Part shown: piece after piece, positions 16,559-46,876 of the stretch
How the letters are laid out: each line of letters opens with the position of its first letter
Position numbering within the stretch: position 1 is the first letter of the stretch
DNA from: Patescibacteria group bacterium
GTDB lineage: Bacteria > Patescibacteriota > Minisyncoccia > Phycocordibacterales > UBA918
DNA length: 64,000 nt
Direction of reading: 5' to 3'
Assembly (NCBI GenBank): GCA_040386275.1
Contig: JAZKFU010000008.1
Location: forward strand, 108,591 to 172,590
Position numbers and translations under genes: made by a program
The notes under the pieces: model-generated
Told to the model about the DNA's origin: nothing
The model's input: the letters and a program-made list of their open reading frames with translations, nothing else
Databases searched by the model: none

Positions 16559-16590
16559 TGATTGACATAAGGTGATAAATATGCTATTAT
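16559..16590 (+). promoter_or_regulatory. sigma-70-like promoter (TTGACA-17-TATTAT) upstream of the transglycosylase-like gene
   Basis: Consensus -35 TTGACA and -10 TATTAT with 17 nt spacer. Confidence 0.45.
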
Positions 16591-28060: not shown

Positions 28061-29077
28061 TTATTCAGTCTCCTCCATTGCGGTCGTTACTGCCTGCACT
28101 AATTTCTTAACATCACTAAACCGACCATCGTAACTAGAACCAAGCACCGTAATAATAATTGGTCGGTTATAGCCGGCATCAAAGGCAATGGTAAGGTTTC
28201 CACCGGCTAAATCGGTATAACCAGTTTTAGAACCAAGCAAGTTAGGAATTTGCGTCACAATCGGATTGGTATTTTCAGCGGAGTGGTAACTTCCCGCTTC
28301 ATTGTAAACGCGAGTACTGGTGAAGGTGCTCGGTTCGAGAATGCTCGGGTAATTTTCCAGAATATATTCCATGAGGAATGATACTTCACGTGCCGTACCG
28401 ACAGCCCCCGCTTCGCTTGCATCAACATCCAGTCCCGTAGGGTTATAAAAAGTAAAATTAGTAAAACCTAACTCTTCGGCGCGCACGTTCATGGCGTTTA
28501 CAAACGTTTGATTAGGGTTACTCGTATCAATCAACGCACCCACGGCATTTGCCAAAGCATAGGCTGCGTCATTGGATGAGGCGAGCATGGCGTAATCAGA
28601 CAATGACTGCACCGAAATAAGCTCCCCTTCTTGTAGGCCACTTGATCCAGATTGTGAAATGGCCGATTTGGAAACGGAAACCTTTTTACTATCATCAACC
28701 AATTCGTGCGCAACCAAAGCCGTCATTAGTTTGGTGATAGACGCCAGCGGTAGAACTGTATCGGCGCCTTTAGTGTAAAGCGCCTTCTTGCCTTTGACGT
28801 CATACACAAACGCAGCCTTTCCTTCCAGAGAAATATTTTCTAAGGTGGCTATAGCAGTAAGATTATTTTGAGCAGTAACGAGTGGTGCTTCAGGGGCGGG
28901 AGTATCAGTGCCAGTATCGGTATTCATAAATCGCTTAACAAACACTCCACTAAAAATAAGCGCGAGTACAAGCCCAAGGACGGACAATTGCGCTAATACT
29001 GGAAACCGTCGAACTTCCACCGATTCTTGTGGTGTTTCTTCAACAGTATCAATCATGTAGTCGGTATCATCGATCAT
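28061..29077 (-). CDS. D-alanyl-D-alanine carboxypeptidase (S11 serine peptidase, PBP5/6-like)
   Basis: SITKLMT (SxxK) active site motif; signal/TM anchor. Confidence 0.7.
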   Translation of the reverse strand: MIDDTDYMIDTVEETPQESVEVRRFPVLAQLSVLGLVLALIFSGVFVKRFMNTDTGTDTPAPEAPLVTAQNNLTAIATLENISLEGKAAFVYDVKGKKALYTKGADTVLPLASITKLMTALVAHELVDDSKKVSVSKSAISQSGSSGLQEGELISVQSLSDYAMLASSNDAAYALANAVGALIDTSNPNQTFVNAMNVRAEELGFTNFTFYNPTGLDVDASEAGAVGTAREVSFLMEYILENYPSILEPSTFTSTRVYNEAGSYHSAENTNPIVTQIPNLLGSKTGYTDLAGGNLTIAFDAGYNRPIIITVLGSSYDGRFSDVKKLVQAVTTAMEETE

Positions 29078-29658
29078 ACGGTAGTTTCGGTCTTAGCGTG
29101 TTCATCAAATTGTTCAAGCGCATCAGTGATACGAGCAAATTCAGGTAATGAACTATTGTCAGTAACGCCTAGTGTCGCAAGCAGTGCGGGAGTAACCGAA
29201 AAGGTGTACCCGCTCCCCTTCCCACTCGCGTTTCGTTCAATTAATCCGCGAATTAATAAATTGCGCAAAATAAATGATGAATTAACCCCTCGAACCCGGT
29301 CTATCTCGCTACGTGATACGGGACCACGGTATAACACAATCGCTAGCGTTTCAGCGCCCGCTTTACCAATATCATTTTTAATATCAGCTTTTCGAATTTG
29401 TTCAATAAACGGAGCCAGTTCGGGAGCCGCTGCTAATACAATCTCGGTCTCAGTTTCAATTAGACGAGTAGCACCATTCGTGAGTCGAGATGAAAGATGC
29501 GCAATAGCAACGTTTAAATCTTCCTCTGAGACCGAGTAGAGCTTTAAAAGGCTAGCTTTTTTCTGTGGGGCTGACTTATAAAAAAGCAGTCCTTCAATAA
29601 GAATATCTAAAGGCATTGTACACACCAGTGTACCATAGAATAAGGCCGATAAAACCAC
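29074..29658 (-). CDS. scpB: segregation and condensation protein B (true start may be the internal MPLDIL at about 29616)
   Basis: Winged-helix ScpB-like sequence (LLFYKSAPQKKASLLKL...IVLYRGPVSRSEIDRVRGVNSS...LLIRGLI). Confidence 0.7.
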   Translation of the reverse strand: MVLSALFYGTLVCTMPLDILIEGLLFYKSAPQKKASLLKLYSVSEEDLNVAIAHLSSRLTNGATRLIETETEIVLAAAPELAPFIEQIRKADIKNDIGKAGAETLAIVLYRGPVSRSEIDRVRGVNSSFILRNLLIRGLIERNASGKGSGYTFSVTPALLATLGVTDNSSLPEFARITDALEQFDEHAKTETTV

Positions 29659-29750
29659 GTATTTTAGACCTTTTCTGTTGACAACATTAAAATCCCCAAT
29701 CCTAATGCTTGACTTTTGTATTTTAGTATGCTATTGTTTTACCTACCTGA

Positions 29751-30062
29751 GGCACGGTGCCAAAAGGTATTACGAAAGGTCTTTCCATGCCGCCGAACTT
29801 CTCACCGGGGCGCCCATCGCCCCGCGCAGTGTTGACCAAGGTATCATCGATCTCGCCGGGCGCCGCCAGGGACCTGGAGGTGTCCGCGTCCTCGACCACC
29901 GATGTCGACGGCCACGTTCGTTGTGAAAACTTCTGATCGGCCGGCGGCGCCCGTTTCGGGCGAGTTGACCAGGGCGGTTTGCGGAGCAAATCCCAACTAG
30001 GGACAAGCTGCCGCGATGACCGCTTGGTCTGACAAAGAAACAAAAAATATATTGGTGCCGAG
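29751..30062. other. GC-rich (about 65% GC) non-coding insert bounded by 8-bp direct repeats CTACCTGA (29743-29750 and 30063-30070), splitting scpA from scpB
   Basis: Abrupt GC shift against the low-GC background; direct repeats exactly at both boundaries; short inverted ends GGCAC...GTGCC; promoter-like TTGACT-17-TATTGT just upstream and a hairpin terminator just downstream. Confidence 0.35.
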
Positions 30063-30085
30063 CTACCTGATTCCCAAAACGCTCA

Positions 30086-30130
30086 AACCCCGCTACATGC
30101 CAGTCATGTTGCGGGGTTACTTTATTATAT
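30086..30130. terminator. hairpin terminator (bidirectional) between the GC-rich insert and scpA
   Basis: AACCCCGC...GCGGGGTT 8 bp stem with nested ACATG/CATGT, followed by ACTTTATTATATTTTT. Confidence 0.5.
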
Positions 30131-30191
30131 TTTTAAACTTTATATTTAAAAAGTTTATTATTTTCCCTATTCAATTTCCTATATTCTATTT

Positions 30192-30935
30192 TTAATAGTA
30201 TCTCGGTGTTCCTCCTCGCTCTAATTCAATTTCTATATCATCAAACCGACCAAGTTGTGTCACCAGTACATTTCCCTGTTTTACTAATTCTAAAATTGCC
30301 AAGAATCCCACAATTACTGTTTTGTGTTCGGGAGCTTCGGCGCGCAGTTGGGAGAACTTGGTTTTAATTTGTGACTCAATACGCTTTTGCAAATTGCTCA
30401 TCATTTCTTCGAGACTAATTGTTTGTTTGACTTGTACCTTGGGTTTGATTTCCTTTTTAGGAAGATTATGAAGAACTGCATCCATGGCTTCACGCAATGC
30501 GTCAATGGTGCAGTATTCGTCAGGAATAAACAAGGCGTCTTTGGGTGCAATAAAACGCGGAGTGTAAAGTGGAGTTTTGCCAAAAATACTCGTTAAGTAC
30601 TGCCCTGCGTCGCGGTAGATTTGGTATTGGCGCAAACGGTCTTCGAGATCATCAATTAATACTTCTTCCTCTTTGGTAAGCTCGAGAATTGGTAATAGAG
30701 ACTTTGACTTAATCAAGAGTAACGTAGCCGCCAACTGCACAAACTGCGCCGTGTGAGGGAGCGATTTTTCCTGCATAGCACTAACCTGTTTGATGTATTC
30801 GTCAGTTACTTCAGCGAGCGAAATATCGTTAATCAGTAACTTCCGCTTTTCCACTAATTCAATTAACAACTCCAAAGGCCCCTCAAAGACATTTGATTTA
30901 AATGAGAATGCTAGTGGTGTGGCAATGAGCGACAT
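30192..30935 (-). CDS. scpA: segregation and condensation protein A
   Basis: N-terminal FEGPLELLIELVEKRKLLINDISLAEVTDEY is a typical ScpA motif. Confidence 0.75.
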   Translation of the reverse strand: MSLIATPLAFSFKSNVFEGPLELLIELVEKRKLLINDISLAEVTDEYIKQVSAMQEKSLPHTAQFVQLAATLLLIKSKSLLPILELTKEEEVLIDDLEDRLRQYQIYRDAGQYLTSIFGKTPLYTPRFIAPKDALFIPDEYCTIDALREAMDAVLHNLPKKEIKPKVQVKQTISLEEMMSNLQKRIESQIKTKFSQLRAEAPEHKTVIVGFLAILELVKQGNVLVTQLGRFDDIEIELERGGTPRYY

Positions 30936-35966: not shown

Positions 35967-37643
35967 TTAACTTATTAATGGTAGAGAAAGAACAAAACTT
36001 GACCCCTTCCCGTCACCGTCTGATTTACACGTAATATCCCCTCCCATAGTGCGTGCCATTTCGCGCGCTACAAACAGTCCTAAGCCGGTGCCATTGATGT
36101 TGACGCTATTGGCATTTTTCGCTCGCGAGAATTTTTGGAACAAATTCTTAACTGTTTCTTGGTCCATTCCAATACCGGTATCAATTACTTCGACATAGAG
36201 CTTCCGTGCAATGTGGTTCTCGTGTACATAGACAGTAATGGTCCCCTTTTGTGTGTATTTCAAAGTGTTATTAATTAGGTTATGGAGTATCTGTTGGGTC
36301 TTAGAAATATCAGCCCGGACAATCCCTTTGCTCGCTATATTAGATTTAAAGAGTAATAGTAACCCAGAGCGAGTGGCTTCAGGACGCAAGTCGTCTACGA
36401 TATGTTCTGCCTGTTCACAGAGATTAAATTCACTGTAGGTGTACTTCATATTGCCCGATTCAATCCGCGAGACATTAAGGAAGTCTTCAATCGAAAAAGC
36501 CATTAATTTAGCAGACTCATGAATGCGTCCCAGGACCTCAGTCATTTCATCTGGTGCTTTTCCGTAGTTACCATCAAGAATCATAGAGGTGTACCCCCGA
36601 ATAGCGGTTAGAGGACTACGCAACTGGTGTGAAGCAATTGAAACAAACTCCGACTTTTGTTTATCAACCACCCGGAGTCGTTCATTGGTTGATTCAAGGT
36701 TGCTCGCCAGCATTTCAATTTCTTCTCGTTGCGACACTTCACTCCGTACACTCTTTATGAGTAATGTACCCAAGATAGAAAAGAAGAGTATGGTCGCCAC
36801 CGCGATAATTTGAGCATTTTCAATTGAACGTACAAATAACAAAGATACCAACAATATAAGTTGTCCCGCCATCAAGGCCTCAGTTGCAAGGAGCTTAACT
36901 TTGAATGTTTCGTACCGAACCAGGATATACCCTAAAAATGCTACAAATATCGGCATCCCGAACAATCCAATCTGACCTGACTTCCAGTCACCGAGGAAGC
37001 TCCCGATAATATTACCAATAGAGAATGAGAGTAAGAATAAGAGGATGCCGGTAGAGACTAAAATGGTCTCTCGTTGGTTGTGTTTCTTTCGATACAGCTG
37101 TTTTATCGTTAACAGCAAAATTAACCCTACAAAGAGAAATTCAAACCCGTAGACGTAATACTGCCACAGTGGTCCTTCACTCGCGTAGCGTAGACAATTT
37201 GTGTAATCAAACCCAATGAGGTTCAAGGTAGTATGTCCAAATAAGATGAGGGGCAGGAACATCGTGAAGATAGCCAACTCGATTTTAAATGACGGGAATT
37301 TTTGATTGTAAAAGGCATAGATAAAATAAAATGCTCCCACGTACATTAATAGCTCAAAGTACATTAATGTCGACCAGACAAACATAATAATATCTGAGCG
37401 AGGCGAAGCCCAGGTAATTAAATCTAGGAAACACCAAATGGCGAACATGGAGGTCGTGAATAAAAGTGCTTGAGCAGCTTTGTTGCGCCAATTAGTGCGT
37501 AGTACAAAAATGGCAATAATTAACCCCGACAAAGACGGTAAAAAATGACCATAATATTGAAAACTTCCCTCTAGATTCTCAGAGAAGATTAAAAAATTAG
37601 CCACTTTCCAGGCACACATTGTAGGATCAACGATGTTCAACAT
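35967..37643 (-). CDS. sensor histidine kinase with N-terminal 7-8 TM sensor domain
   Basis: HisKA H-box SHQLRSPLTAIRGY and HATPase_c N, G1, G2 boxes (NLINNTLKYT, DTGIGM, GTGLGL). Confidence 0.75.
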   Translation of the reverse strand: MLNIVDPTMCAWKVANFLIFSENLEGSFQYYGHFLPSLSGLIIAIFVLRTNWRNKAAQALLFTTSMFAIWCFLDLITWASPRSDIIMFVWSTLMYFELLMYVGAFYFIYAFYNQKFPSFKIELAIFTMFLPLILFGHTTLNLIGFDYTNCLRYASEGPLWQYYVYGFEFLFVGLILLLTIKQLYRKKHNQRETILVSTGILLFLLSFSIGNIIGSFLGDWKSGQIGLFGMPIFVAFLGYILVRYETFKVKLLATEALMAGQLILLVSLLFVRSIENAQIIAVATILFFSILGTLLIKSVRSEVSQREEIEMLASNLESTNERLRVVDKQKSEFVSIASHQLRSPLTAIRGYTSMILDGNYGKAPDEMTEVLGRIHESAKLMAFSIEDFLNVSRIESGNMKYTYSEFNLCEQAEHIVDDLRPEATRSGLLLLFKSNIASKGIVRADISKTQQILHNLINNTLKYTQKGTITVYVHENHIARKLYVEVIDTGIGMDQETVKNLFQKFSRAKNANSVNINGTGLGLFVAREMARTMGGDITCKSDGDGKGSSFVLSLPLIS

Positions 37644-37804: not shown

Positions 37805-39481
37805 CTAAACCAGTGGGAATGAAATCGTAAATGTTGAGCCTTTGCCTTCTCCTTCTGATTGAACGGTAATATCACCTCCCATTGCGCGAGCCATTTCTCG
37901 GGCTACAAATAATCCTAAACCGGTACCCATAATATTCGCAGAGCTAGCAATTTTAGCGCGGGCAAATTTACCGAATAGTTTTTGCATGCTCTCACTACTC
38001 AATCCGACTCCCGTATCAATAATGTCCACGTATATTTTTTTACTTTTTACATCATCGTGGGCATAGACTGTAACACTTCCTTTCGGCGTATACTTCAAGG
38101 CGTTGTTGATAAGGTTATGGAATATTTGCTGTGTCTTTCCTGCGTCCGCTCGGACGAGTCCAGTTCCCTGCATATCAGAGCGATAGAGCAACATTAATCC
38201 CCGTTTTACCGCATCTGCGCGTAAATCATCTACCACATGTTCAGCTTGATCCTTAAGATTCACGTCCATGTACTCGTACTTCATATTCCCTGATTCAATG
38301 CGAGATACATCCAAGAAATCATTAATTGACGTAGCCATGAATTTAGACGATTCATTTACACGTTCCAATATTTCTTGTGCCTTTTCCGGTAATTGACCAA
38401 AACTCCCCTCCGCCATCATCGATACATACCCGCGGATAGCAGTGAGTGGGCTGCGTAACTGGTGCGAAGCAATCGATACAAACTCGGACTTCTGTTTATC
38501 CAAAATCTGCAACCGCTCGTTAGCTCGTTCTAGACCATAGGCCAACTTCTCAATCTCCTCTCGCTGTTTGATTTCTCTGTAGACAGAACGAATAAGGAGG
38601 TATCCTAAAATAATAAATAATATAAATGCCGCAGCTGTAATAATTCTAAACGAATTCGTGTCGTCTACAAAAAGAAGTGAAGCAATTAACGAGCCAATAA
38701 ACATCACAAGCGCTACCGTACTAAAGAGTCGTATATTAAAGGTTTTATACTTAACAATACTGTATACAAAGAAGCTAATAAATACCGGCATTGTAAAAAG
38801 ACCAATCTGGGCAAAACGCCAGTCCTCATTGAAACTACTTATAATGTTTCCAAGTGAGAACATTAGCAAAAGACTTGTGATGCCTAGAGTTAGTATAGTA
38901 ATTTCACCACGTCGTTTTGGTAAGCGAATTGCACTTCGAATCGCGAAAATCACAATCCATACGAGAATTATCCCTTCTATTCCGTAAGTATAATATGTAG
39001 CCATCGGCCCCTCCAAACTAAGACATATCGACTCATCAAATGCGTAAAGCATCAAGCTAGTTGGCACAAAGAGGACAACTGGTAAATATAAAATTCCAAG
39101 AATTATTTTTTCAATAAATCTATTATCCTTTCCATTAATGAGTGTCTGCATTAAGTACAATGCACTAATATAAATTATAGGTTCAAACAATATTTGCATT
39201 GACCACACAAACATGATCACGTCCCCTCTATTACTTGCCCAAAATACAGAGTCAAGTAAAACCCAAATAGTGAAACTTAAAGTTAACGAAAAAAGTGCTC
39301 GATTTGGTAGGCCGTTTACATTTTTAAAAAGTACGAAAATTCCAAGCAGTAATGCAATGAGAGATATAGGTAGATGAGAATAATAAACTAGTGACGGAAC
39401 ATTTTCTGAAAAAATCAAATAGGTCGGGCCAGAGAAATCACATAAGCCTGGATTTGAAATAGATGCCGGAATTGAGTCCAT
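37805..39481 (-). CDS. sensor histidine kinase, paralog of the adjacent kinase
   Basis: Same architecture: SHQLRSPLTAIRGY H-box and HATPase_c boxes; collinear similarity to the 35967-37643 product. Confidence 0.75.
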   Translation of the reverse strand: MDSIPASISNPGLCDFSGPTYLIFSENVPSLVYYSHLPISLIALLLGIFVLFKNVNGLPNRALFSLTLSFTIWVLLDSVFWASNRGDVIMFVWSMQILFEPIIYISALYLMQTLINGKDNRFIEKIILGILYLPVVLFVPTSLMLYAFDESICLSLEGPMATYYTYGIEGIILVWIVIFAIRSAIRLPKRRGEITILTLGITSLLLMFSLGNIISSFNEDWRFAQIGLFTMPVFISFFVYSIVKYKTFNIRLFSTVALVMFIGSLIASLLFVDDTNSFRIITAAAFILFIILGYLLIRSVYREIKQREEIEKLAYGLERANERLQILDKQKSEFVSIASHQLRSPLTAIRGYVSMMAEGSFGQLPEKAQEILERVNESSKFMATSINDFLDVSRIESGNMKYEYMDVNLKDQAEHVVDDLRADAVKRGLMLLYRSDMQGTGLVRADAGKTQQIFHNLINNALKYTPKGSVTVYAHDDVKSKKIYVDIIDTGVGLSSESMQKLFGKFARAKIASSANIMGTGLGLFVAREMARAMGGDITVQSEGEGKGSTFTISFPLV

Positions 39482-39540
39482 ATATTAAACTTTAAGTTTC
39501 TTTATGTTTATTGTATAGTACAATCTATTAATCTCAATAT

Positions 39541-39933
39541 ATGTTACGGGTAAAAACTAAAATTAAAACAAGTGAAGTTAATGGTATTGGTCTATTTGCT
39601 GATCAGTTTATTCCAGCAGGAACAGTAACTTGGAAGTATGATCAAGGTTTTGATCCACATTTTACAATTGAACAATTTGAATCTTTACCTGACTTTACAA
39701 AAGAAACCATTTTAACCCATGGGTATTTTGATCACCAATTAAATGTGTATATCCTTTGTTCTGATGATCAACGATTTATTAATCACTCACAAAACCCAAA
39801 TATAACCTCAACGCCTTCTGAAGATGTGGCTAATAAAGATATCCACCCTGGGGATGAACTAACTTGTGATTATTCTCAATATGAACAAGATTGGTTTGAA
39901 CGAAGAGATGTTGATAGAAGTTCATTTGTTTAG
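39541..39933 (+). CDS. SET domain protein (putative protein lysine methyltransferase)
   Basis: GIGLFA, INHSQNPN (NHS motif) and ELTCDY (post-SET-like) motifs. Confidence 0.6.
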   Translation: MLRVKTKIKTSEVNGIGLFADQFIPAGTVTWKYDQGFDPHFTIEQFESLPDFTKETILTHGYFDHQLNVYILCSDDQRFINHSQNPNITSTPSEDVANKDIHPGDELTCDYSQYEQDWFERRDVDRSSFV

Positions 39934-39939
39934 CAAATA

Positions 39940-39971
39940 TAAAAAAACCACACTAGGTGTGGTTTTTTTTA
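39940..39971 (+). terminator. Rho-independent terminator after the SET gene
   Basis: AAAAAAACCACAC-TAG-GTGTGGTTTTTTTT perfect hairpin. Confidence 0.6.
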
Positions 39972-39978
39972 TACACTT

Positions 39979-40095
39979 TTATAGTGGGACTATGTAGTAG
40001 TCATAGGCAATAAAAATTCTAAAATAAGAAATTATTACTGTAAGCAAAATTAAAAATAGAAATGCCCAAATTAATATTTTTGATTTTTTGGTCAT
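39979..40095 (-). CDS. hypothetical 38-aa hydrophobic peptide immediately downstream of speH
   Basis: ATG 3 nt after the speH stop; MTKKSKILIWAFLFLILLTVIISYFRIFIAYDYYIVPL; not in ORF track (under 60 aa). Confidence 0.25.
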   Translation of the reverse strand: MTKKSKILIWAFLFLILLTVIISYFRIFIAYDYYIVPL

Positions 40096-40098
40096 AAC

Positions 40099-40515
40099 TT
40101 AATTATATATATTTTCACTTGGATATCGAATCCCACGCTTTTGTATGTGCATGTCACTAGATTGTAACATGAAAGCTTTTGTAAATTCATCCCGTAACTT
40201 GTCAGTATCTAAATCATTTTGACACGTGTACACATCAATAGTTACAAAGCCTCGGGCTGGAAAAGTGTGGAAACTAATATGACTTTCTGCAATCATTACG
40301 AACCCACTAATTCCACCTGGATCCTTACGATTTTTTGGACCTACTTCTACAACTACAGGTTCGTTAATTACATGCATCCCCATTGCTTTTGGAATGTCAT
40401 TAAGCATATTTGTAAGAAGTTCTCTATCTTTTAATGTTTCTTCTGATGCTCCGTAACCATCAAGCATAAAGTGTACACCGAACTGTTCAGTGGATGGGGT
40501 ATTTATTATTGTCAT
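40099..40515 (-). CDS. speH: S-adenosylmethionine decarboxylase proenzyme (small pyruvoyl type)
   Basis: FMLDGYG and processing-site region IAESHISFHTFPA (ES cleavage) typical of SpeH/SpeD-class AdoMetDC. Confidence 0.8.
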   Translation of the reverse strand: MTIINTPSTEQFGVHFMLDGYGASEETLKDRELLTNMLNDIPKAMGMHVINEPVVVEVGPKNRKDPGGISGFVMIAESHISFHTFPARGFVTIDVYTCQNDLDTDKLRDEFTKAFMLQSSDMHIQKRGIRYPSENIYN

Positions 40516-40545
40516 TGTTTAAAACTATAGCACAGATTGATATAA
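40516..40545 (-). promoter_or_regulatory. promoter-like element (extended -10 TGCTATAGT) abutting the speH start; duplicated at 41707-41735
   Basis: Minus-strand AATCTGTGCTATAGTTTT lies 7-9 nt upstream of the ATG, implying a leaderless or very short-leader transcript. Confidence 0.4.
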
Positions 40546-40620
40546 ATTGCAAGTATTTATGTGTATAAGTGATGAAATTTAAAAATCCCCGCCCTTGTGA
40601 AAAGGCGGGGACTACATGCA

Positions 40621-41706
40621 TCAGAATTTACCGAGAACAATCGTCATTCCCAGTGCAATAGTTGCAAGAGTGAGCAACATTGCCTTGGTCCTGGTAGGCA
40701 TAACACTAATCAGGCTTGCGCTTGATAGTGTCACCTGTCCCAGATGCAAGTCTTTTTGTCTTTCATGCATCCTCTTTCCAATAAAGGTTAGAAGAACAGT
40801 TAGACCAAAGACTGCAACCACGTGACCTGAAATTATGAGGTTAACGAACACGCCAGTGAGTTGCCACAAGGCATAAATCTCAAAGACATATACGAGCGCC
40901 CCAAACATCTCAGCAAACATGATGACCCAGAAGTACTGTTTAAGCTTCGGAATAAACTCGCGAAACTCAATACGAACTTTTTTGGAAACCAAAATCATCG
41001 CTCCAGACAAGTATCCCAACCAGTAGTAAGGTTGAAACGCAAGAACGTCTGCAAGTGAACGTTCGTACAGAACGGCTGACCCAAGAACCGTGTATGCGGT
41101 GATGAGTACAAGCATCAATATCACCGTCGAGCTCCTCGTTGTAGTAAGAGAAAACGCGGTATCTTGCATATCAAATCGCACAATCAGGCAGATTGTAGCA
41201 ATCAAACTTACAAGAAACCACAACGAGAAGTCGATATCTTGTAATGCGGCAAGTGGACCGTACGAAACGTCCAAGGCGCTAATGCTGGCAGTGGCCAGGT
41301 ATACCCACAGTGGCGACGTTGCGAGCCACATTGAAATTGCGGTGATATTTGGCCGCTCATCCCCTGTGGGAATAAACAGTTTAAAGTAGCACCCCATAAC
41401 CGAAATGGTCAGTGCGCCCACAACCATCATCCAGATCCCCTCTTTCCAGAGTGAAAGCGAATGCGAAAGTAGACTAACTCCATCAACAGCTAAGACAGAA
41501 TAGAGGCACCAGCAAATAATCGTAGTGACAGTTCCAAAGAACACTCCTGCCACAGACGAGACCAGCCAAGCCATTTTGGGACGTTGCTGATAACAGTCGT
41601 CCATCATGTACTCATCGAAAAGTATCATGATTGCCTGGCTCATTGAGCTCAGGACTGCAAAGAAAATTCCCAAGCTCATGCTAGCTCCTGTTGTGTAAGG
41701 TTTCAT
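40621..41706 (-). CDS. hypothetical polytopic membrane protein
   Basis: 361 aa with about 9-10 TM helices; terminator hairpin CCCCGCC...GGCGGGG downstream. Confidence 0.4.
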   Translation of the reverse strand: MKPYTTGASMSLGIFFAVLSSMSQAIMILFDEYMMDDCYQQRPKMAWLVSSVAGVFFGTVTTIICWCLYSVLAVDGVSLLSHSLSLWKEGIWMMVVGALTISVMGCYFKLFIPTGDERPNITAISMWLATSPLWVYLATASISALDVSYGPLAALQDIDFSLWFLVSLIATICLIVRFDMQDTAFSLTTTRSSTVILMLVLITAYTVLGSAVLYERSLADVLAFQPYYWLGYLSGAMILVSKKVRIEFREFIPKLKQYFWVIMFAEMFGALVYVFEIYALWQLTGVFVNLIISGHVVAVFGLTVLLTFIGKRMHERQKDLHLGQVTLSSASLISVMPTRTKAMLLTLATIALGMTIVLGKF

Positions 41707-41735
41707 CTGTAAAAACTATAGCACAGATTAATAAA
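41707..41735 (-). promoter_or_regulatory. second copy of the TGCTATAGT promoter-like element abutting the membrane-protein start
   Basis: AAAACTATAGCACAGATT repeated at 40524-40541 and 41711-41728. Confidence 0.4.
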
Positions 41736-41882
41736 AAAAGCAAGTAAATAACTATGGAGTGTTGATAACTCCTAAATAAAATTCCCCTCTTACATCTAGT
41801 TTAAAATCAATAAAATGAACATTCATACATTTATGATGTAAAATACATAAACAAATATTCACTTTTTAAATATTTTATACAC

Positions 41883-42335
41883 ATGAAAATTTCTTCAAAC
41901 ATTCAAACTGTCTTAGATATCCTTCAAAATGAAGTAAATGGCGAAGCTAAAGAAGCTCTTTTAAAAATGACTGAAGATTATAGCATGACATGGATGTATC
42001 AAAGTAAAAATGAATTGTTCCCTACTACAAGTAATGATATAGAAAGTGAATTGAAAGAAGTGTATGTCATCAAAGACAGAGAGTATGATATACGTAACAT
42101 TTGTGAAAGTGAAGATGTGGTTATGGTTGAGATGATTGAAAGTTATTCTGACCCTAAGACAGGACAAATATATAGAACTCCTCAGGTTATTGTTCTAAAG
42201 TTTAAAGATGGAAAAATTCAAACCGGCCGTCACTATAATGACCCCAATCTTTCTTATATGAAATTAAGTGAAGAGCAGATTAATTCTGCGCTAATAAATA
42301 CCGAAACAAAATTAATAATTAAATCTAAAATTTAA
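41883..42335 (+). CDS. hypothetical protein (NTF2/SnoaL-like fold suspected)
   Basis: 150 aa; weak resemblance only. Confidence 0.3.
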   Translation: MKISSNIQTVLDILQNEVNGEAKEALLKMTEDYSMTWMYQSKNELFPTTSNDIESELKEVYVIKDREYDIRNICESEDVVMVEMIESYSDPKTGQIYRTPQVIVLKFKDGKIQTGRHYNDPNLSYMKLSEEQINSALINTETKLIIKSKI

Positions 42336-42360
42336 TATTATTACTAATGAGATTACATGT

Positions 42361-42618
42361 ATGGAAAATAAACTCTTTACGTCATTAATTGAATCAGGTA
42401 TATATTTCTACAAGGAACACGGTAAGAGTGCGGATATTGCAAATATGCTAATGACTATGGAAGTTAATGAAACAGGTATCATTCACGACTTCATAATTGA
42501 ACTATCTCTGACAATGCACCCAAATGAGGAAGTCGGTGTTGGCTGTCATTCAATTGAGACTATTGAAAAAGCATTCCATGAGTACAAAATCACAGGCACA
42601 ACCGATTTGTTAAATTAG
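42361..42618 (+). CDS. hypothetical small protein
   Basis: 85 aa ORF. Confidence 0.3.
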   Translation: MENKLFTSLIESGIYFYKEHGKSADIANMLMTMEVNETGIIHDFIIELSLTMHPNEEVGVGCHSIETIEKAFHEYKITGTTDLLN

Positions 42619-42671
42619 TTTTCAATAATAATTACACTTTCATTGAACCTGGCTCCTCAAATTATTCAATT

Positions 42672-43589
42672 TTAATCACCGTGTGGTTTTAAATTTGGAA
42701 TAGCATCTTCATTTTTAATAAAGCGATTAAACCAGTTAATTGACTGTTTAAAATATTCCGTTTTGTATTCAGTTATTCCGTGGTCAGCACCTTCAAATAA
42801 AATGAACCGATGCGGTATCTTGTGAGTATACATATCCCGACTCATTTCGATGGAATCAATTGGAGATACACGCCAATCAGCTGTTCCATGCATAAGTAGT
42901 ATAGGAACTTTTTTTGGTAGTTCGTTACTCCAACGTAAAGGAGAGCGTAGTATGAGTTCATTTTTACTTTTACCCCATAGACTTATTTGGTGTTCTCGCC
43001 ACTTGGGTCGTTCTTTACCTTGTCTAATTTGATCTGCAGGAGCTGCAGCTATAACTGCTGACTTTATCCATTTCACCTCACGTAGAAGCATGTATGCCAT
43101 AAGACCACCACGTGAATGTCCTTTAATGCCAATTTTATTTATATCCGCAACTGAAACACTTTTGAGAATATCTTTCAGCTTAACTATACTTGCTATGTCA
43201 TCTTCCCCTCCAAACTTGTCTTTGCCATCTCCGCCTTCAACTCCAGGATATTGGGTGCTTATTACAATGTATCCTTCAAGTGCATATTTAACTAACTGAC
43301 CGTATATTGCCCGTGGTGCTAGAGCTGCAAAATCTCTACTTCCTCCGCGTAAATGAATTATACAAGGTACTTTCTCCTTTAGATTTTTTGGTATTGTAAT
43401 GTATCCAATTACTTTTAATTTTCCGACTTTATATATGAAACGATATGTCTCGACTAGTTGTAACTCATTTTTTGCAGATTCAATTTTTTGTATATCTGAT
43501 AAAAAATCTAATTTTTCAGACAGGGGGTAAGATTCAACCAAGGTAACTGATTTGTTACCTTTTAATTCACCAATAAATTCTTGTATCAT
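42672..43589 (-). CDS. alpha/beta hydrolase (S9 prolyl oligopeptidase / dienelactone hydrolase-like)
   Basis: Nucleophile elbow GHSRGG and downstream Asp/His (HGTADWRV, GADHG). Confidence 0.65.
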   Translation of the reverse strand: MIQEFIGELKGNKSVTLVESYPLSEKLDFLSDIQKIESAKNELQLVETYRFIYKVGKLKVIGYITIPKNLKEKVPCIIHLRGGSRDFAALAPRAIYGQLVKYALEGYIVISTQYPGVEGGDGKDKFGGEDDIASIVKLKDILKSVSVADINKIGIKGHSRGGLMAYMLLREVKWIKSAVIAAAPADQIRQGKERPKWREHQISLWGKSKNELILRSPLRWSNELPKKVPILLMHGTADWRVSPIDSIEMSRDMYTHKIPHRFILFEGADHGITEYKTEYFKQSINWFNRFIKNEDAIPNLKPHGD

Positions 43590-43607
43590 AATCTGATTCT
43601 ACCTTAT

Positions 43608-43650
43608 TAACTTAAATATAAAAAGTTGGACCCCGCGATGCAGGGTCCAA
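43608..43650 (-). terminator. terminator after the GNAT gene
   Basis: TTGGACCC-CGCGATGCA-GGGTCCAA hairpin followed on the minus strand by CTTTTTATATTT. Confidence 0.5.
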
Positions 43651-44139
43651 TTAAAGCAATTTTGCCATTAAGTACTTATCGACAAGACAACCATCAATTT
43701 TCGCTGCTCCTCGAATTGTTCCTTCGATGTTAAAAGCGAATTTTTGATATAAGTGAATCGCCTTAAGATTAATTGTTTGAACATATAGCTGAAGTCGATA
43801 TAGATTCATCAACTTTGCTTCTGTTATTGAATGAGTCATGAGTGCTGACCCTACACCCTTATTGCTAAAGTTGGACGTAACACCTATAGCTAAGGTACCT
43901 ACACCACAATTCCGTTTCATTCTACCTAAAGATATACCTAAATAACCAATAATTACTGCAGTCTCCTCCGCAATCCATAAACGCTCATATTGTTGAGAGA
44001 GACTGAGTCTTTTTGCTAATAAAGATGGTTCTGGAACTTCATCATGTTCATAGAGCATAAACTGTGACTCAGATGTTATCTGAATCATTAATGATGCTAG
44101 TTGCACAGCGTCACGCTCATTTGCTTGTCTTATTAACAT
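43651..44139 (-). CDS. GNAT family N-acetyltransferase (track ORF 43651..44508 over-extends through the GC-rich terminator region)
   Basis: MLIRQANERDAVQLASLM...RLQLYVQTINLKAIHLYQKFAF is the GNAT fold; ATG at 44139. Confidence 0.65.
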   Translation of the reverse strand: MLIRQANERDAVQLASLMIQITSESQFMLYEHDEVPEPSLLAKRLSLSQQYERLWIAEETAVIIGYLGISLGRMKRNCGVGTLAIGVTSNFSNKGVGSALMTHSITEAKLMNLYRLQLYVQTINLKAIHLYQKFAFNIEGTIRGAAKIDGCLVDKYLMAKLL

Positions 44140-44152
44140 GTCGACTACCTCT

Positions 44153-44193
44153 CTTAAGATAAAGGCGCGCCATCCAAAGAAGGATAGCGCGCC
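44153..44193 (-). terminator. GC-rich terminator after the DUF1399-like gene
   Basis: Minus-strand GGCGCGCUAUCC-UUCUUU-GGAUGGCGCGCC hairpin followed by UUUAUCUU. Confidence 0.5.
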
Positions 44194-44212
44194 CGATGCC
44201 ATTGCTGATTGA

Positions 44213-44695
44213 TCAGCTCTGGCAGTTCGTGGAAGCCCCGCAGACGCCGGGGCCGCAGCTGCCCGGAATCTTCGTGAACGCCCAGTGCTCGGAAAGCGTA
44301 CCGAAGGTGCGCTCGGCGGCCTCGAGGGTGTTCCGGACCATGGAGCCGTCGCTCGAGGCCCGCTGAGCCTGGGTGAGCGGCTGGTGGTGCAGGAAGAAGC
44401 CGACCTTCGACTTACAGTAGTCGGCATAGTCGCCGGTGAACAGAATGAAGTTGTGCCAGATCTCGTCGATGTCTTCGGGCGGCGCCATGGAGCCGTCGTT
44501 GGTCGCACAAAGATAGAGGAACTTTTTCATCTCGCCGAACAGCTCGTCCGTGAACTCCGGCGTCCAGCCTTCCTTCACGACCATGCGTTCCTTGAGCGCC
44601 GGGTGGTCGTAGTCCATCATCTTCGCGAGAAGATTCGGATCAGTTGCAAGGCGCTGTCGCTGGGACAGAGCAATAACACTTGTCATCGTGGTCAT
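44213..44695 (-). CDS. GC-rich (about 62% GC) DUF1399/GRDP-like domain protein with Cys-rich C-terminal tail
   Basis: DIDEIWHNFILFTGDYADYC resembles the DUF1399 core motif (recalled from memory); tail GSCGPGVCGASTNCQS; composition far from the genome background. Confidence 0.45.
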   Translation of the reverse strand: MTTMTSVIALSQRQRLATDPNLLAKMMDYDHPALKERMVVKEGWTPEFTDELFGEMKKFLYLCATNDGSMAPPEDIDEIWHNFILFTGDYADYCKSKVGFFLHHQPLTQAQRASSDGSMVRNTLEAAERTFGTLSEHWAFTKIPGSCGPGVCGASTNCQS

Positions 44696-44824
44696 TTTTC
44701 ACCCCTTGAGGTTTATGGTTTGAAGTTGCCTAGGAACTACTGCAGCTTCTTGAATTAAGCCTGCAGATTATGCCATTTAACACCACAAATAGTTAATTGT
44801 CAACTATTAAATAGTCAATGTAAA

Positions 44825-44986
44825 TTAACCTTTTTCGTCACCCATTCTGTCTGAGCTTGTAAAAACTTGAGGCTCATCAGTTAAGTGATCAAATTCATGT
44901 GGCACGGGACGATTTTCTACTCCGACTCTTGTGAGCCATGAGTCAAACTTCAAATATGCCCAGTTTTTAATTTTGTATAAGCACTT
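44825..44986 (-). CDS. hypothetical 54-aa peptide
   Basis: Strong SD AAGGGGAG 6 nt upstream of the ATG; MKCLYKIKNWAYLKFDSWLTRVGVENRPVPHEFDHLTDEPQVFTSSDRMGDEKG; downstream of the radical SAM gene on the same strand. Confidence 0.35.
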   Translation of the reverse strand, partial: KCLYKIKNWAYLKFDSWLTRVGVENRPVPHEFDHLTDEPQVFTSSDRMGDEKG

Positions 44987-45197
44987 CATTTTAGCTCCCC
45001 TTCTTTTCATTTCTAACAGTATAATGGCACATTTTATAAATTTGTCTATAGTTACGTTCAGGTATCTACTAGTTTACGCAATATTGATAAAAGTAAGCTA
45101 AAAGACTCTGGTTTGCTCTAATTGTACTTATTTTAATATTTATTGTTGTAAAATTTAAGCATGTATTATACATTTTTTCTTTTTTAGAAATTCCTTT

Positions 45198-45240
45198 TAG
45201 TTATAAAAAAAGCCACTGTAAATTTTCACTTACAGTGGCG
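45198..45240 (-). terminator. Rho-independent terminator after the radical SAM gene
   Basis: GCCACTGTAA-ATTTTCAC-TTACAGTGGC perfect 10 bp hairpin followed on the minus strand by UUUUUUUAUAAC. Confidence 0.6.
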
Positions 45241-45260
45241 TAAAGATCTCCCAACTTCAC

Positions 45261-46727: not shown

Positions 46728-46876
46728 AATTTTCCCCTACTTTGTTGAGAGTATCTGCACTGTACAGTACAATAGATAATCAATAATGTCTAGTCAGAGA
46801 TAAAAACTTATGAATTATTTAACTATTATACAAATGCAGATTTAATTATCTTGACAAGAAAGAATACAATGTTATA

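What the first reader, a model, noticed from the sequence alone, without database searches (positions are those of the whole stretch)
29743..30070. About 312-bp GC-rich insertion with 8-bp direct repeats splitting the scpA-scpB pair
scpA and scpB are normally adjacent; here they are separated by about 530 bp containing a 65-68% GC block (29751-30062) in a low-GC genome.
- CTACCTGA occurs exactly at both boundaries (29743-29750 and 30063-30070), consistent with a target-site duplication.
- The block starts GGCACGGTGCC and ends GGTGCCGAG (short inverted ends).
- It contains internal hairpins (CGGGGCG/CGCCCCG; CGCCCG-TTTC-CGGGCG) and a repeated GTTGACCA(A/G)GG motif.
- It is preceded by a TTGACT-17-TATTGT promoter-like sequence and followed by a strong hairpin terminator.
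Candidates: a MITE-like non-autonomous element, a small structured ncRNA, or a tiny ORF (MPPNFSPGRP..., 49 aa, SD-like AAAGG).
Basis: seen in the sequence. Interest (0 to 1): 0.6.

Follow-up and report, generated by a model that had tools for sequence, protein, structure and literature searches.

The report
Fast-evolving small-peptide RNA gene cassette
The GC-rich block between scpA and scpB is not a transposon insertion: it is an unannotated, independently transcribed small gene (a 49-codon peptide followed by a conserved structured RNA tail) that sits at this locus in a whole clade of Patescibacteria and is swapped between strains like a cassette.

Summary
CTACCTGA occurs at 29743 and 30063. 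A GC-rich block (60% overall, about 70% in its core, against a 43% background) lies between convergent-facing scpA/scpB, with a promoter before it and a terminator after it.

The MITE/target-site-duplication reading fails. Most Kaiserbacteria-like relatives carry a 350-950 bp unit at this exact locus. Other relatives have 40-85 bp "empty" spacers that contain neither CTACCTGA nor the promoter.

The unit is a transcription unit on the + strand:
- an extended -10 promoter;
- a 5'-terminal stem-loop, whose 5' strand is the first CTACCTGA;
- a Shine-Dalgarno (SD) sequence and a 49-codon sORF (MPPNFSPG...), 29787-29936;
- a structured 3' region and an intrinsic terminator.

Across seven cassettes, every codon difference inside the NFSP motif is synonymous, so the sORF is translated. 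The frame beyond its UGA behaves as non-coding.

The untranslated parts are 92-97% identical to a relative whose flanking genes are only 74% identical. A genome with 93-96% identical flanks carries an unalignable cassette at 29752-30160.

No Rfam, Pfam, NCBIfam or PHROGs family matches. My best reading is a lineage-specific dual-function small RNA/peptide gene exchanged by recombination. Its molecular role is unknown.

The parts
29676..29685 (+). TGTTGACAAC, a 4-1-4 palindrome next to a (here decayed) hairpin at about 29643-29672. It is the ancestral part of the scpA-scpB spacer, not part of the cassette.
   Evidence: Conserved in all relatives, including those with 78-83 bp 'empty' spacers (L011, L015). 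In the window the hairpin folds only weakly.
29709..29737 (+). Promoter of the unit: -35 TTGACT, 17-bp spacer, extended -10 TGcTATTGT.
   Evidence: Found by the promoter scan. Both hexamers, the TG and the spacing are conserved in relatives. TGnTAnnnT was found upstream of all 20 sORFs examined. One of only two matches to TTGAC-N15-TGnTAWWRT in the window.
29744..29769 (+). 5'-terminal stem-loop of the transcript (UACCU / AGGUA enclosing GGCAC-G-GUGCC). It contains the first CTACCTGA copy. The inferred transcription start is about 29744-29745.
   Evidence: Local fold. In 18 of 20 cassettes the predicted fold puts a stem-loop within the first 6 nt of the inferred 5' UTR. There are compensatory changes, read from the sequences: L008 UACCCG/CGGGUA, L002 UGUCU/AGAUA, and L018 against L014.
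29774..29779 (+). Shine-Dalgarno-like GAAAGG, 7 nt before the AUG.
   Evidence: Read from the sequence. Relatives have GGAG, GGGAG or GGAGG at the same place.
29787..29936 (+). sORF of 49 codons plus a UGA stop: MPPNFSPGRPSPRAVLTKVSSISPGAARDLEVSASSTTDVDGHVRCENF.
   Evidence: Orthologous sORFs in L034 and L008 and family members in 17 more cassettes. The NFSP codons differ only synonymously across 7 cassettes. Window against L008: 10 synonymous-difference codons among the conserved residues. The upstream GTG extension is closed by a stop codon in L034 (read from the sequence).
29948..29962 (+). 3'-UTR hairpin A (CGCCCG-UUUC-GGGCG).
   Evidence: Fold. Kept through a two-sided change in L033 (CCCA/UGGG) and replaced by GGCCA/UGGCC in L008.
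29967..30029 (+). 3'-UTR hairpin B, a long irregular stem with an apical UCCC-loop-GGGA.
   Evidence: -35.6 kcal/mol, z = -3.5. In 6 cassettes 91.9% of cells are paired, against 31-50% when the partners are slid. Three pairs show two-sided changes.
30030..30085 (+). A-rich linker (AGAAACAAAAAAUAUA), then a small hairpin carrying the second CTACCTGA copy (30063-30070). This is the conserved GA(G/A)nnACCUGA element.
   Evidence: Aligned across 7 cassettes, with ACCT invariant and GA after it in 6 of 7. The covariance model R1 scores 84-110 bits on its seven training sequences only.
30086..30130 (+). Intrinsic terminator (stem 30086-30118, then a U-rich tract). It probably also ends scpA transcription coming from the other side.
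   Evidence: -20.4 kcal/mol, z = -5.5. 97% identical to L034.
29752..30160 (.). Exchangeable cassette as defined against the nearest genome: everything transcribed after position +7, the terminator, and about 40 bp of AT-rich DNA.
   Evidence: L007 aligns at 96.0% up to 29751 and at 92.9% from 30159, without gaps. In between, 407 bp in the window faces 669 bp in L007 with no detectable similarity.
30163..30191 (.). Conserved right flank of the slot: short TATTC(A/T) repeats abutting the scpA stop codon.
   Evidence: Present in L007, L008, L009, L013, L018, L035, L036 and L038. Absent from empty spacers.
30192..30935 (-). scpA (247 aa).
   Evidence: PF02616. 6212 homologues; the named ones among the closest are from Patescibacteria/Kaiserbacteria.
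29074..29616 (-). scpB (180 aa from the ATG at 29616).
   Evidence: PF04079. tblastn hits in relatives.

Best explanation
The block is the body of a small autonomous gene on the + strand, convergent with scpA and divergent from scpB.

**How it most likely works**
- A strong sigma-70-type promoter with an extended -10 (29709-29737) starts an RNA of about 375-385 nt near 29744.
- The RNA opens with a 5'-terminal stem-loop, which probably stabilises it.
- An SD sequence and an AUG direct translation of a 49-residue peptide. The peptide has a conserved N-terminal NFSPG motif, a variable middle, and a semi-conserved G/D/H-rich C-terminal part.
- The UGA stop lies in a GC-rich hairpin region.
- About 150 nt of conserved, GC-rich, non-coding structure follows: hairpin A, long hairpin B, an A-rich linker, and a CACCUGA-bearing element. 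An intrinsic terminator ends the RNA.
- The RNA is therefore most likely dual-function, in the manner of RNAIII/hld or SR1/SR1P. It would be a peptide mRNA whose 3' domain also acts as RNA.

**The slot and its contents**
The unit occupies a fixed slot between the scpA stop codon and the ancestral scpA-terminator/scpB-promoter region in Kaiserbacteria-like Patescibacteria. Its content is exchanged between lineages, whole or in modules, by recombination through the conserved promoter side and the scpA side.

**Shown**
- The anatomy and its conservation.
- The synonymous-substitution signature indicating that the sORF is translated.
- The non-coding nature of the 3' part.
- Replacement of the cassette between near-identical genomes.

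**Inferred**
- The transcription start.
- The stabilising role of the 5' hairpin.
- An RNA-level function for the 3' domain.
- The biological role of the peptide.
For: **Locus conservation**
- Spacers of 350-950 bp with the same architecture occur in about 25 loci whose ScpA is 60-100% identical to the window's.
- All 20 sORF cassettes examined have a TGnTAnnnT promoter. Nearly all have a 39-52 nt 5' UTR with a stem-loop at or near its 5' end, followed by an SD.

**Translation of the sORF**
- NFSP codons: AAC/AAT, TTC/TTT, TCA/TCC/TCG, CCG/CCC/CCT. All differences are synonymous.
- Window against L008: 14 identical, 10 synonymous-difference and 22 non-synonymous codons.
- The GTG extension upstream is stopped in L034 (sequence).

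**The 3' part is not coding**
- In the frame read through the UGA, window against L034 gives 6 non-synonymous and 1 synonymous difference in 26 codons.

**RNA structure**
- The + strand folds with z = -4.3, against -2.35 for the - strand.
- Hairpin B is 92% paired in 6 cassettes, with 3 compensated pairs. Hairpin A is compensated in L033.

**Conservation pattern, window against L034**
- 5' UTR 93%, 3' UTR 92%, terminator 97%, sORF 79-82%. Flanking gene DNA is 74-75%.

**Exchange**
- L007 has 93-96% identical flanks and an unrelated cassette.
- L017 and L044 share a 97.7% identical 3' part but have unalignable sORF regions. L007/L009/L002 are mosaics.

**Not an artefact**
- An independent assembly is identical across the spacer.
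Against: - There is no expression or proteomic data.
- The SD of the window's own copy is weak (GAAAGG).
- The peptide family is tiny and low in complexity. Only the same-locus peptides come up among 1.84 billion cluster representatives.
- Covariation support for the 3' structure rests on 4-7 related sequences, and control (a) is only marginal.
- High conservation of the UTRs could reflect recent transfer of the cassette rather than RNA function.
- No partner genes (maturase, transporter, receptor) are adjacent.
- No trans target is known.
Confidence: 0.65

Rival explanations
1. The functional product is purely a regulatory non-coding RNA. It could be a trans-acting or 3'-derived small RNA using the CACCUGA/UCCC elements as seeds. 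It could instead be an antisense or convergent-transcription regulator that uncouples scpA from scpB. On this view the sORF is incidental or only a cis-acting leader.
For: - The untranslated parts are the best-conserved parts of the cassette: 92-97%, against 79-82% for the sORF and 74% for flanking genes.
- Hairpins A and B are conserved, with some compensation.
- The anti-SD-like GA(G/A)nnACCUGA element lies next to an A-rich linker and the terminator in 7 cassettes.
- All 20 sORFs end in UGA, mostly placed in the loop of a local hairpin, which suggests coupling between termination and RNA folding.
- The unit lies antisense between two normally coupled genes.
Against: - Synonymous-only variation in the NFSP codons, and conserved SD-AUG geometry in 20 of 20 cassettes, show selection on the peptide.
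- No Rfam family matches.
- No target could be identified.
- The 3' module is confined to the closest sub-clade, whereas the sORF architecture spans the whole clade.
Confidence: 0.2
2. The peptide is the precursor of a secreted or post-translationally modified peptide (RiPP-, bacteriocin- or pheromone-like). It would have a conserved N-terminal recognition motif and a fast-evolving core. The locus would then be a strain-specific 'pherotype' cassette, with the processing genes encoded elsewhere. This is a specific version of the best explanation.
For: - A conserved N-terminal motif ((N)F[SD]P.G) is followed by a hypervariable remainder containing G-G/G-A/G-D motifs.
- Unrelated alleles occur in genomes with 93-98% identical flanks.
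- Candidate Phyla Radiation (CPR) graspetide precursors were reported as short, mutually unalignable peptides. They share a P-h-h-x(1,2)-h leader motif, and some may be encoded away from their enzyme (PMC8939145). Several peptides here contain P-L-A-x-x-V-type stretches (my reading).
Against: - No maturase, peptidase-ABC exporter or RiPP recognition element (RRE) gene lies in the locus in any relative.
- The only radical SAM enzyme in the window is HemN/STM4012-like and 15 kb away.
- The peptides have no signal peptide.
- No hit to any RiPP precursor model in NCBIfam or Pfam.
- The published core signature TxxxTx(6-10)Dx(1-4)D is not met.
Confidence: 0.2
3. It is a MITE-like non-autonomous mobile element that inserted into a CTACCTGA target and duplicated it.
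For: - An exact 8-bp direct repeat brackets the GC-rich block. Such bracketing occurs by chance in about 1% of shuffles.
- Short complementary ends exist (GGCAC / GGTGCC).
- Relatives with uninterrupted spacers exist.
Against: - Empty spacers have no CTACCTGA site, and they also lack the promoter that lies outside the repeats.
- Both repeat copies are conserved RNA elements in divergent cassettes.
- The end complementarity is not conserved in L008.
- No other copy was found in the window, in 53 related loci, or in plasmid, phage or viral collections.
- The swap boundary on the right is at about 30160, not 30062.
Confidence: 0.03
4. It is a fragment or pseudogene of a horizontally acquired high-GC protein-coding gene, or an assembly chimera.
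For: - GC3 of the + frame is 80%, against 41% for the window's genes.
- A 106-aa ORF lies on the - strand.
- The same genome does carry a clearly foreign high-GC gene at 44213-44695, 71-79% identical to proteins named as Pseudomonadota.
Against: - No Pfam hit for any frame.
- No DNA similarity to plasmids or phages beyond 30-50 nt chance matches.
- Homologous cassettes with the same sORF frame occur in relatives.
- An identical sequence appears in a second assembly.
Confidence: 0.03

Closest known systems
Dual-function small RNAs that also encode a small peptide (S. aureus RNAIII/hld, B. subtilis SR1/SR1P, E. coli SgrS/SgrT). Comparison from general knowledge.
   Same: A few-hundred-nucleotide, highly structured RNA made from its own strong promoter. 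A short ORF sits near the 5' end, followed by a long structured non-coding 3' domain ending in an intrinsic terminator. C/U-rich anti-SD-like elements are candidate pairing sites.
   Different: No sequence or Rfam relationship. No known targets. The peptide is hydrophilic and G/D/H-rich. The whole unit is hypervariable and is exchanged between strains at one fixed locus.
Hypervariable peptide-precursor loci (comC/agrD pherotypes; RiPP precursors, including the CPR graspetide precursors of PMC8939145).
   Same: Short peptides with a conserved N-terminal motif and a rapidly diverging remainder. Unrelated alleles occur in closely related genomes. The genes are often missed by gene callers.
   Different: No adjacent processing, export or sensing genes. 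No match to any precursor model. The published CPR core signature is absent. A long conserved 3' RNA domain is not typical of such genes.
MITEs and other small non-autonomous insertion elements.
   Same: A short (about 320 bp) compositionally odd block bracketed by an 8-bp direct repeat, inside an otherwise compact gene pair.
   Different: Single copy. No conserved terminal inverted repeats. The repeat is not a target duplication. The block is a locus-bound functional transcription unit.
Integron gene cassettes expressed from a resident promoter.
   Same: A conserved resident promoter followed by interchangeable cargo. Some relatives carry 132-137-aa ORFs in the slot as well as, or instead of, the sORF.
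   Different: No integrase and no attC-like sites. Junctions are compatible with homologous recombination in conserved flanks. Cassettes are homologous variants of one architecture rather than unrelated genes.
Type I toxin mRNAs (hok, aapA, tisB).
   Same: A small ORF in a highly structured mRNA, with possible 5'-3' end pairing in the minimum-free-energy fold.
   Different: The peptide has no hydrophobic transmembrane segment. No antisense RNA gene is present. The 5'-3' pairing is not conserved.

Membership tests
MITE / non-autonomous transposable element | Target-site duplication: the empty site carries one copy of the duplicated sequence. | tested here: not met
   The empty spacers examined (L011, L015, L019) contain no CTACCTGA or ACCTGA. 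They also lack the promoter that lies outside the repeats.
MITE / non-autonomous transposable element | Terminal inverted repeats conserved between copies. | tested here: not met
   The GGCAC...GGTGCC complementarity is weakened in L034 (GGCGC / GGTGCT) and lost in L008 (GGTAGT). The 5' GGCRC pairs locally with GUGCC instead.
MITE / non-autonomous transposable element | Multiple dispersed copies. | tested here: not met
   No second copy in the 64-kb window, in 53 related loci, in plasmids or phages, or in viral contigs. Whole genomes could not be scanned.
Any Rfam RNA family (including RNase P, tmRNA, SRP, 6S, group I/II introns, ribozymes) | Covariance-model score at or near the gathering threshold. 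| tested here: not met
   No hit at gathering thresholds in the window except tRNA-Ser. At E <= 10 on 29600-30250 there are only chance hits to the terminator and AT-rich tail. ARAGORN finds no tmRNA.
Translated small ORF (small-protein gene) | SD and start codon conserved in position. | tested here: met
   20 of 20 cassettes have an AUG after a 39-90 nt 5' UTR. An SD (GGAG, GGGAG or GGAGG; GAAAGG in the window) is visible upstream in most of them.
Translated small ORF (small-protein gene) | Substitution pattern biased towards synonymous changes at conserved residues. | tested here: met
   NFSP: all codon differences among 7 cassettes are synonymous. Window against L008: 10 synonymous-difference codons. 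Contrast: 6 non-synonymous to 1 synonymous in the frame after the UGA.
Translated small ORF (small-protein gene) | Direct evidence of translation (Ribo-seq, mass spectrometry). | not testable with these tools
   No expression data are available.
Structured regulatory RNA (3' domain) | Conserved secondary structure supported by covariation. | tested here: inconclusive
   Hairpin B: 91.9% of cells paired against 31-50% when slid, 3 pairs with two-sided changes, but only 6 related sequences. In the shuffle control, 10 of 500 shuffles reach the observed covariation score. Hairpin A is compensated in one sequence.
RiPP precursor peptide | Encoded next to a maturase or RRE, or matching a known precursor family. 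| tested here: not met
   The neighbours are AspRS-like, PepA (M17), an HD phosphohydrolase, ScpA, ScpB, an S11 carboxypeptidase and MraY. No NCBIfam or Pfam precursor hit at E <= 10. A distant maturase cannot be excluded.
RiPP precursor peptide | Conserved leader and hypervariable core architecture. | tested here: inconclusive
   The N-terminal (N)F[SD]P.G motif is conserved and the rest is highly variable. However, a semi-conserved G-[DA]-x-G-G-H lies near the C-terminus and no cleavage site can be assigned.
Type I toxin | Small hydrophobic membrane peptide with a cis- or trans-encoded antisense RNA. | tested here: not met
   The peptides are rich in G, D, H, S and P and have no hydrophobic stretch. 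No antisense promoter or terminator pair was seen.
Selenocysteine or stop-codon read-through gene | Coding constraint continues downstream of the UGA. | tested here: not met
   The frame stays open after the UGA, and a database entry, P0131, translates it with UGA read as W to give 120 aa. Window against L034 nevertheless shows 6 non-synonymous to 1 synonymous changes there.

The most novel reading that the evidence does not exclude
The scpA-scpB slot of Kaiserbacteria-like CPR bacteria is a clade-wide 'peptide cassette' locus that is shuffled by recombination. Each strain would strongly express one allele of a fast-diversifying precursor peptide, processed by enzymes encoded elsewhere, coupled to a conserved regulatory RNA domain. 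The system would serve strain discrimination, competition or host interaction in these episymbionts, like a pherotype or bacteriocin system. The invariant UGA-in-hairpin would be a translation-coupled switch for the RNA domain.
Probability: 0.15. Interest if true: 0.7.

Novelty: new member of a known kind. Interest (0 to 1): 0.42.

Why it matters
- CPR/Patescibacteria genomes are tiny and largely unannotated at the level of small genes and RNAs.
- Here a strongly promoted, unannotated sORF-plus-RNA unit has been kept in one slot across an order-level clade. Its content turns over faster than anything around it.
- That combination of a fixed slot, a conserved promoter, replaceable content and a diversifying peptide usually marks genes involved in cell-cell or host-parasite interactions. 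Such functions are the least understood part of CPR biology.
- It is also a caution for genome scans. A GC-odd block with flanking direct repeats looked like a mobile element but is a resident gene.
- If the peptide or the RNA domain proves functional, the cassette gives a compact, testable handle: about 400 bp with natural allelic series.

Tried and rejected
**Known RNA families**
- Rfam at gathering thresholds and at E <= 10 gave nothing relevant. ARAGORN found no tmRNA.
- By eye I compared the block with RNase P conserved regions, the tmRNA ends, SRP domain IV and 6S architecture. Only a short GGAGCAA..CC..A.UAGGG resemblance to E. coli RNase P turned up. The P4 signature sequences are absent, so I rejected it.

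**DNA similarity**
- blastn of the block against plasmids and phages gave only 30-50 nt chance matches in high-GC organisms.
- Exact-pattern scans of viral contigs with two cassette segments gave 0 hits.
- A promoter pattern matched 113 viral contigs. I take these as matches to a generic strong-promoter consensus and did not follow them. An earlier pattern had the wrong spacing.

**Protein families**
- Pfam, NCBIfam and PHROGs found nothing significant (all E >= 0.06) for all block ORFs, ten sORF peptides and the 132/137-aa cassette ORFs of relatives. PDB sequence search of the 132-aa ORF found nothing.
- A profile search of the peptide family against 5.8 billion proteins and 1.84 billion representatives returned only same-locus peptides, one code-4 mistranslation and one spurious adhesin.
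- The exact peptide is not on record as a called gene.

**Other readings tested**
- UGA read-through or selenocysteine: rejected on the substitution pattern.
- Lasso-peptide reading (G1...E7/E8 ring): fits the window and L034 but fails in L008, and there are no B/C enzymes.
- Graspetide core signature: not met.
- Type I toxin: rejected on peptide composition.
- Pairing of the 3' CACCUGA element with the SD or 5' hairpin: perfect in L007, but not general.
- Covariance model of the 3' module: no extra copies in the window or in 53 loci.
Full report
**1. The observation**

Window 29074-29616 (-) is scpB (PF04079) and 30192-30935 (-) is scpA (PF02616). They are separated by 575 bp.

- CTACCTGA occurs at 29743 and 30063, and only once more in the window, on the other strand.
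- The bracketed block is 60.3% GC. Its core reaches 68-70% in 100-nt bins, against a 43% genome background.
- In 300-nt bins it is the second most GC-rich place in the window.
- The promoter-like site TTGACT-17-TATTGT, with a TG before the -10, is at 29709-29737.
- The downstream hairpin at 30086-30118 folds at -20.4 kcal/mol (z = -5.5) and is followed by a U-rich tract.
- An exact 8-mer direct repeat somewhere in such a spacer is expected by chance (83% of shuffles). One that brackets the block occurs in about 1% of shuffles.
- A second public assembly is identical over the whole spacer.

The description is therefore accurate, apart from a slightly overstated GC value.

**2. Known families**

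- Rfam finds nothing here, at gathering thresholds or at E <= 10. ARAGORN finds no tmRNA.
- No frame of the block hits Pfam.
- The DNA has no relatives among plasmids, phages or viral contigs.
- The + strand folds better than shuffles (z = -4.3), and better than the - strand does (z = -2.35).

**3. Relatives change the picture**

ScpA places the organism among Kaiserbacteria-like Patescibacteria. I fetched 61 related loci by protein look-up and by scanning genome and metagenome collections.

- The spacer is long (350-950 bp) in most relatives whose ScpA is 60-100% identical to the window's.
- It is short (about 10-85 bp) in some loci within that range (L011, L015/L041, L019) and in the most distant ones.
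- Short spacers keep only a terminator-like hairpin and the palindrome TGTTGACAAC next to scpB. They contain neither the promoter at 29709-29737 nor any CTACCTGA.

Something was indeed added between scpA and scpB. It was added deep in the clade, it includes the promoter that lies outside the repeats, and there is no target site to duplicate.

**4. Anatomy of the unit (window + strand)**

All 20 cassettes in which I could define the sORF share these features:

- an extended -10 promoter (TGnTAnnnT);
- a 39-52 nt 5' UTR in 18 of them, longer in the other two;
- a stem-loop that, in 18 of the 20 predicted folds, starts within the first 6 nt of the inferred 5' UTR;
- an A-rich stretch and an AUG, with an SD (GGAG, GGGAG or GGAGG; GAAAGG in the window) visible upstream in most.

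In the window the stem-loop is UACCU/AGGUA enclosing GGCAC-G-GUGCC (29744-29769). The first CTACCTGA is its 5' strand. The stem changes by compensatory substitutions in relatives: L008 UACCCG/CGGGUA, L002 UGUCU/AGAUA, and L018 against L014 (read).

The sORF has 28-52 codons. In the window it encodes MPPNFSPGRPSPRAVLTKVSSISPGAARDLEVSASSTTDVDGHVRCENF (29787-29936).

- Its orthologues are MKNGPNFSPGG...GAGRDLEVSASPPTDVDGHVAHTFS in L034 and MDSNFSPGSYN...GAGADLGVSCPATDVGGHVHCSS in L008.
- Other cassettes share an N-terminal (N)F[SD]P.G(H) motif and a C-terminal G-[DA]-x-G-G-H or repeated A-G-H motif.

**5. The sORF is translated; the rest is not**

- Across seven cassettes the NFSP codons vary only synonymously: AAC/AAT, TTC/TTT, TCA/TCC/TCG, CCG/CCC/CCT.
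- Window against L008 has 10 codons that differ while keeping the amino acid.
- The GTG-initiated upstream extension is closed by a stop codon in L034 (sequence).
- The frame downstream of the UGA stays open. One database entry, P0131, even translates it with UGA read as Trp to give 120 aa. There, however, window against L034 shows 6 non-synonymous to 1 synonymous change in 26 codons. That region evolves as RNA, not as protein.

The non-coding 3' part contains:

- hairpin A (29948-29962), with a two-sided change in L033;
- long hairpin B (29967-30029), at -35.6 kcal/mol and z = -3.5. In six cassettes 91.9% of cells are paired, against 31-50% when the partners are slid, and three pairs are compensated;
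- an A-rich linker;
- a small element, GA(G/A)nnACCUGA, which is the second CTACCTGA copy and is conserved in seven cassettes;
- the terminator.

Both copies of the 'direct repeat' are therefore conserved RNA elements.

**6. Conservation pattern and exchange**

*Window against L034.*
- Flanking gene DNA is 74-75% identical.
- The 5' UTR is 93% identical, the 3' UTR 92%, the terminator 97% and the sORF 79-82%.

*Window against L007.*
- ScpA is 99.6% identical. The flanks are 96.0% and 92.9% identical, without gaps.
- Similarity stops exactly at 29751 and resumes at 30159.
- In between, 407 bp in the window faces 669 bp in L007 with no detectable similarity.
- L007 carries a different sORF there (MMKFEPMGNGRPFYCMNLHLTGAGVDLGHCPQA).

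*Other pairs.*
- L017 and L044 share a 97.7% identical 3' part but have unalignable sORF regions.
- L007, L009 and L002 are mosaics of shared modules.

The slot has conserved edges: the promoter side, and TATTC repeats next to the scpA stop codon. Its content is exchanged between lineages, and the peptide diverges fastest. It is allelic or cassette replacement by recombination, not transposition.

**7. What it most likely is and does**

The best-supported reading is an autonomous RNA of about 380 nt that is both an mRNA for a small peptide and a carrier of a conserved structured 3' domain. That architecture is known from RNAIII/hld and SR1/SR1P (general knowledge). I could not assign a molecular function.

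- The peptides match no Pfam, NCBIfam or PHROGs model.
- Profile searches of 5.8 billion and 1.84 billion proteins return only same-locus peptides.
- The neighbours are housekeeping genes.
- A precursor-peptide role (RiPP-, bacteriocin- or pheromone-like) is attractive. The reasons are the conserved N-terminal motif, the hypervariable remainder and the strain-level allele replacement.
- CPR graspetide precursors have been described as short, mutually unalignable peptides that may lie away from their enzymes (PMC8939145).
- Against this, the published core signature is not met and no processing gene is linked to the locus.
- A purely RNA-based role is supported by the very high UTR conservation and the anti-SD-like CACCUGA element. 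It does not explain the coding signature.

**8. Unexplained regularities**

- All 20 sORFs end in UGA, whereas the window's genes use TAA 31, TAG 11 and TGA 7 times. The context is mostly CC-UGA-Y.
- In roughly three quarters of the cassettes the UGA lies in or at the loop of a GC-rich hairpin formed by the last sORF codons.
- Several relatives carry a second SD-led mini-ORF in the 3' region: MKIFRL*, M.KY[FI]RPPIRADT* (whose stop codon abuts the terminator) and MIFRKRL.... The window's cassette lacks it.

**9. Verdict**

The headline interpretation (a MITE with a target-site duplication) is wrong. One listed alternative, the tiny ORF, is right, and another, a structured RNA, is partly right.

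This is a new, lineage-specific member of a known kind: a small-peptide/small-RNA gene. Its unusual property is cassette-like turnover in a fixed slot between scpA and scpB. Interest is moderate, and would be higher if the peptide proves to be a diversifying signal or weapon.

Noticed in passing
window 44160-44700 (ORF 44213-44695, - strand): A second GC-rich island (61% and 55% GC in 300-nt bins) holds a 160-aa 'glycine-rich domain-containing protein' (PF27765) ending in a Cys-rich tail (GSCGPGVCGASTNCQS). The named ones are 71-79% identical and come from Pseudomonadota (a MAG; Rhodovulum sulfidophilum) and from a Minisyncoccota MAG. It looks like a horizontally acquired high-GC gene in this 43% GC genome.
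   Followed up: partly
window 39300-46800: An AT-rich island (26-39% GC in most bins from 38.7 to 44.1 kb) surrounds the GC-rich gene. It also holds an alpha/beta-hydrolase or peptidase-like protein (42672-43589), a GNAT acetyltransferase (about 43651-44139) and a HemN/STM4012-family radical SAM protein (45261-46727). It may be an accessory or RiPP-like cluster. It is 15 kb from the finding and not linked to it by any evidence.
   Followed up: partly
window 29617-29685; loci L003, L005, L011, L015, L016: The ancestral scpA-scpB spacer holds a perfect hairpin plus T-run and the palindrome TGTTGACAAC. On the - strand an extended -10 (TGnTAnAnT) lies only about 10-15 nt before the scpB ATG, which suggests a leaderless or near-leaderless scpB mRNA with its own promoter. 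In the window the hairpin has decayed (-1.5 kcal/mol).
   Followed up: partly
window 30163-30191; same position in L007, L008, L009, L013, L018, L035, L036, L038: Short tandem TATTC(A/T) repeats lie between the cassette terminator and the scpA stop codon. They are conserved in cassette-bearing relatives and absent from empty spacers. They could be a protein-binding site or a recombination flank.
   Followed up: no
L007, L009, L016, L040, L042, L036, L049 (cassette 3' regions): Second mini-ORFs with strong SDs occur in relatives: MKIFRL*, M.KY[FI]RPPIRADT* (its stop codon abuts the terminator stem), MRIRHLRPPIRADT... and MIFRKRL... They look like ribosome-arrest or leader peptides. They are absent from the window's cassette.
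   Followed up: no
L017, L043-L046 (132-133-aa ORF) and L004 (137-aa ORF): Some relatives carry a conserved 132-133-aa ORF after the sORF, or a 137-aa ORF instead of it, in the same slot. Pfam, PHROGs and PDB sequence searches find nothing convincing.
   Followed up: partly
protein P0131 (same DNA as window 29787 onward): A public protein collection holds a 120-aa translation of this locus in which both in-frame UGA codons are read as Trp. This appears to be a code-4 gene-calling artefact. The organism's long ORFs are intact under code 11.
   Followed up: yes
window 16562-16590 (+): The only other match in the window to the strong extended -10 promoter pattern is TTGACATAAGGTGATAAATATGCTATTAT. 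I did not examine what it drives.
   Followed up: no
window 35967-37643 and 37805-39481 (- strand): Two adjacent 558-aa ORFs have similar N-termini (…FLIFSEN…), so they are apparently tandem paralogues. They look like membrane proteins.
   Followed up: no
Viral-contig loci from L068 on (80 of 113 listed): The promoter pattern GCTTGACTTT-N9-GTATGCTA matches 113 IMG/VR contigs, against 5 with N10. I take this as a widespread strong-promoter consensus rather than relatives of this locus, but I did not inspect the hits.
   Followed up: no
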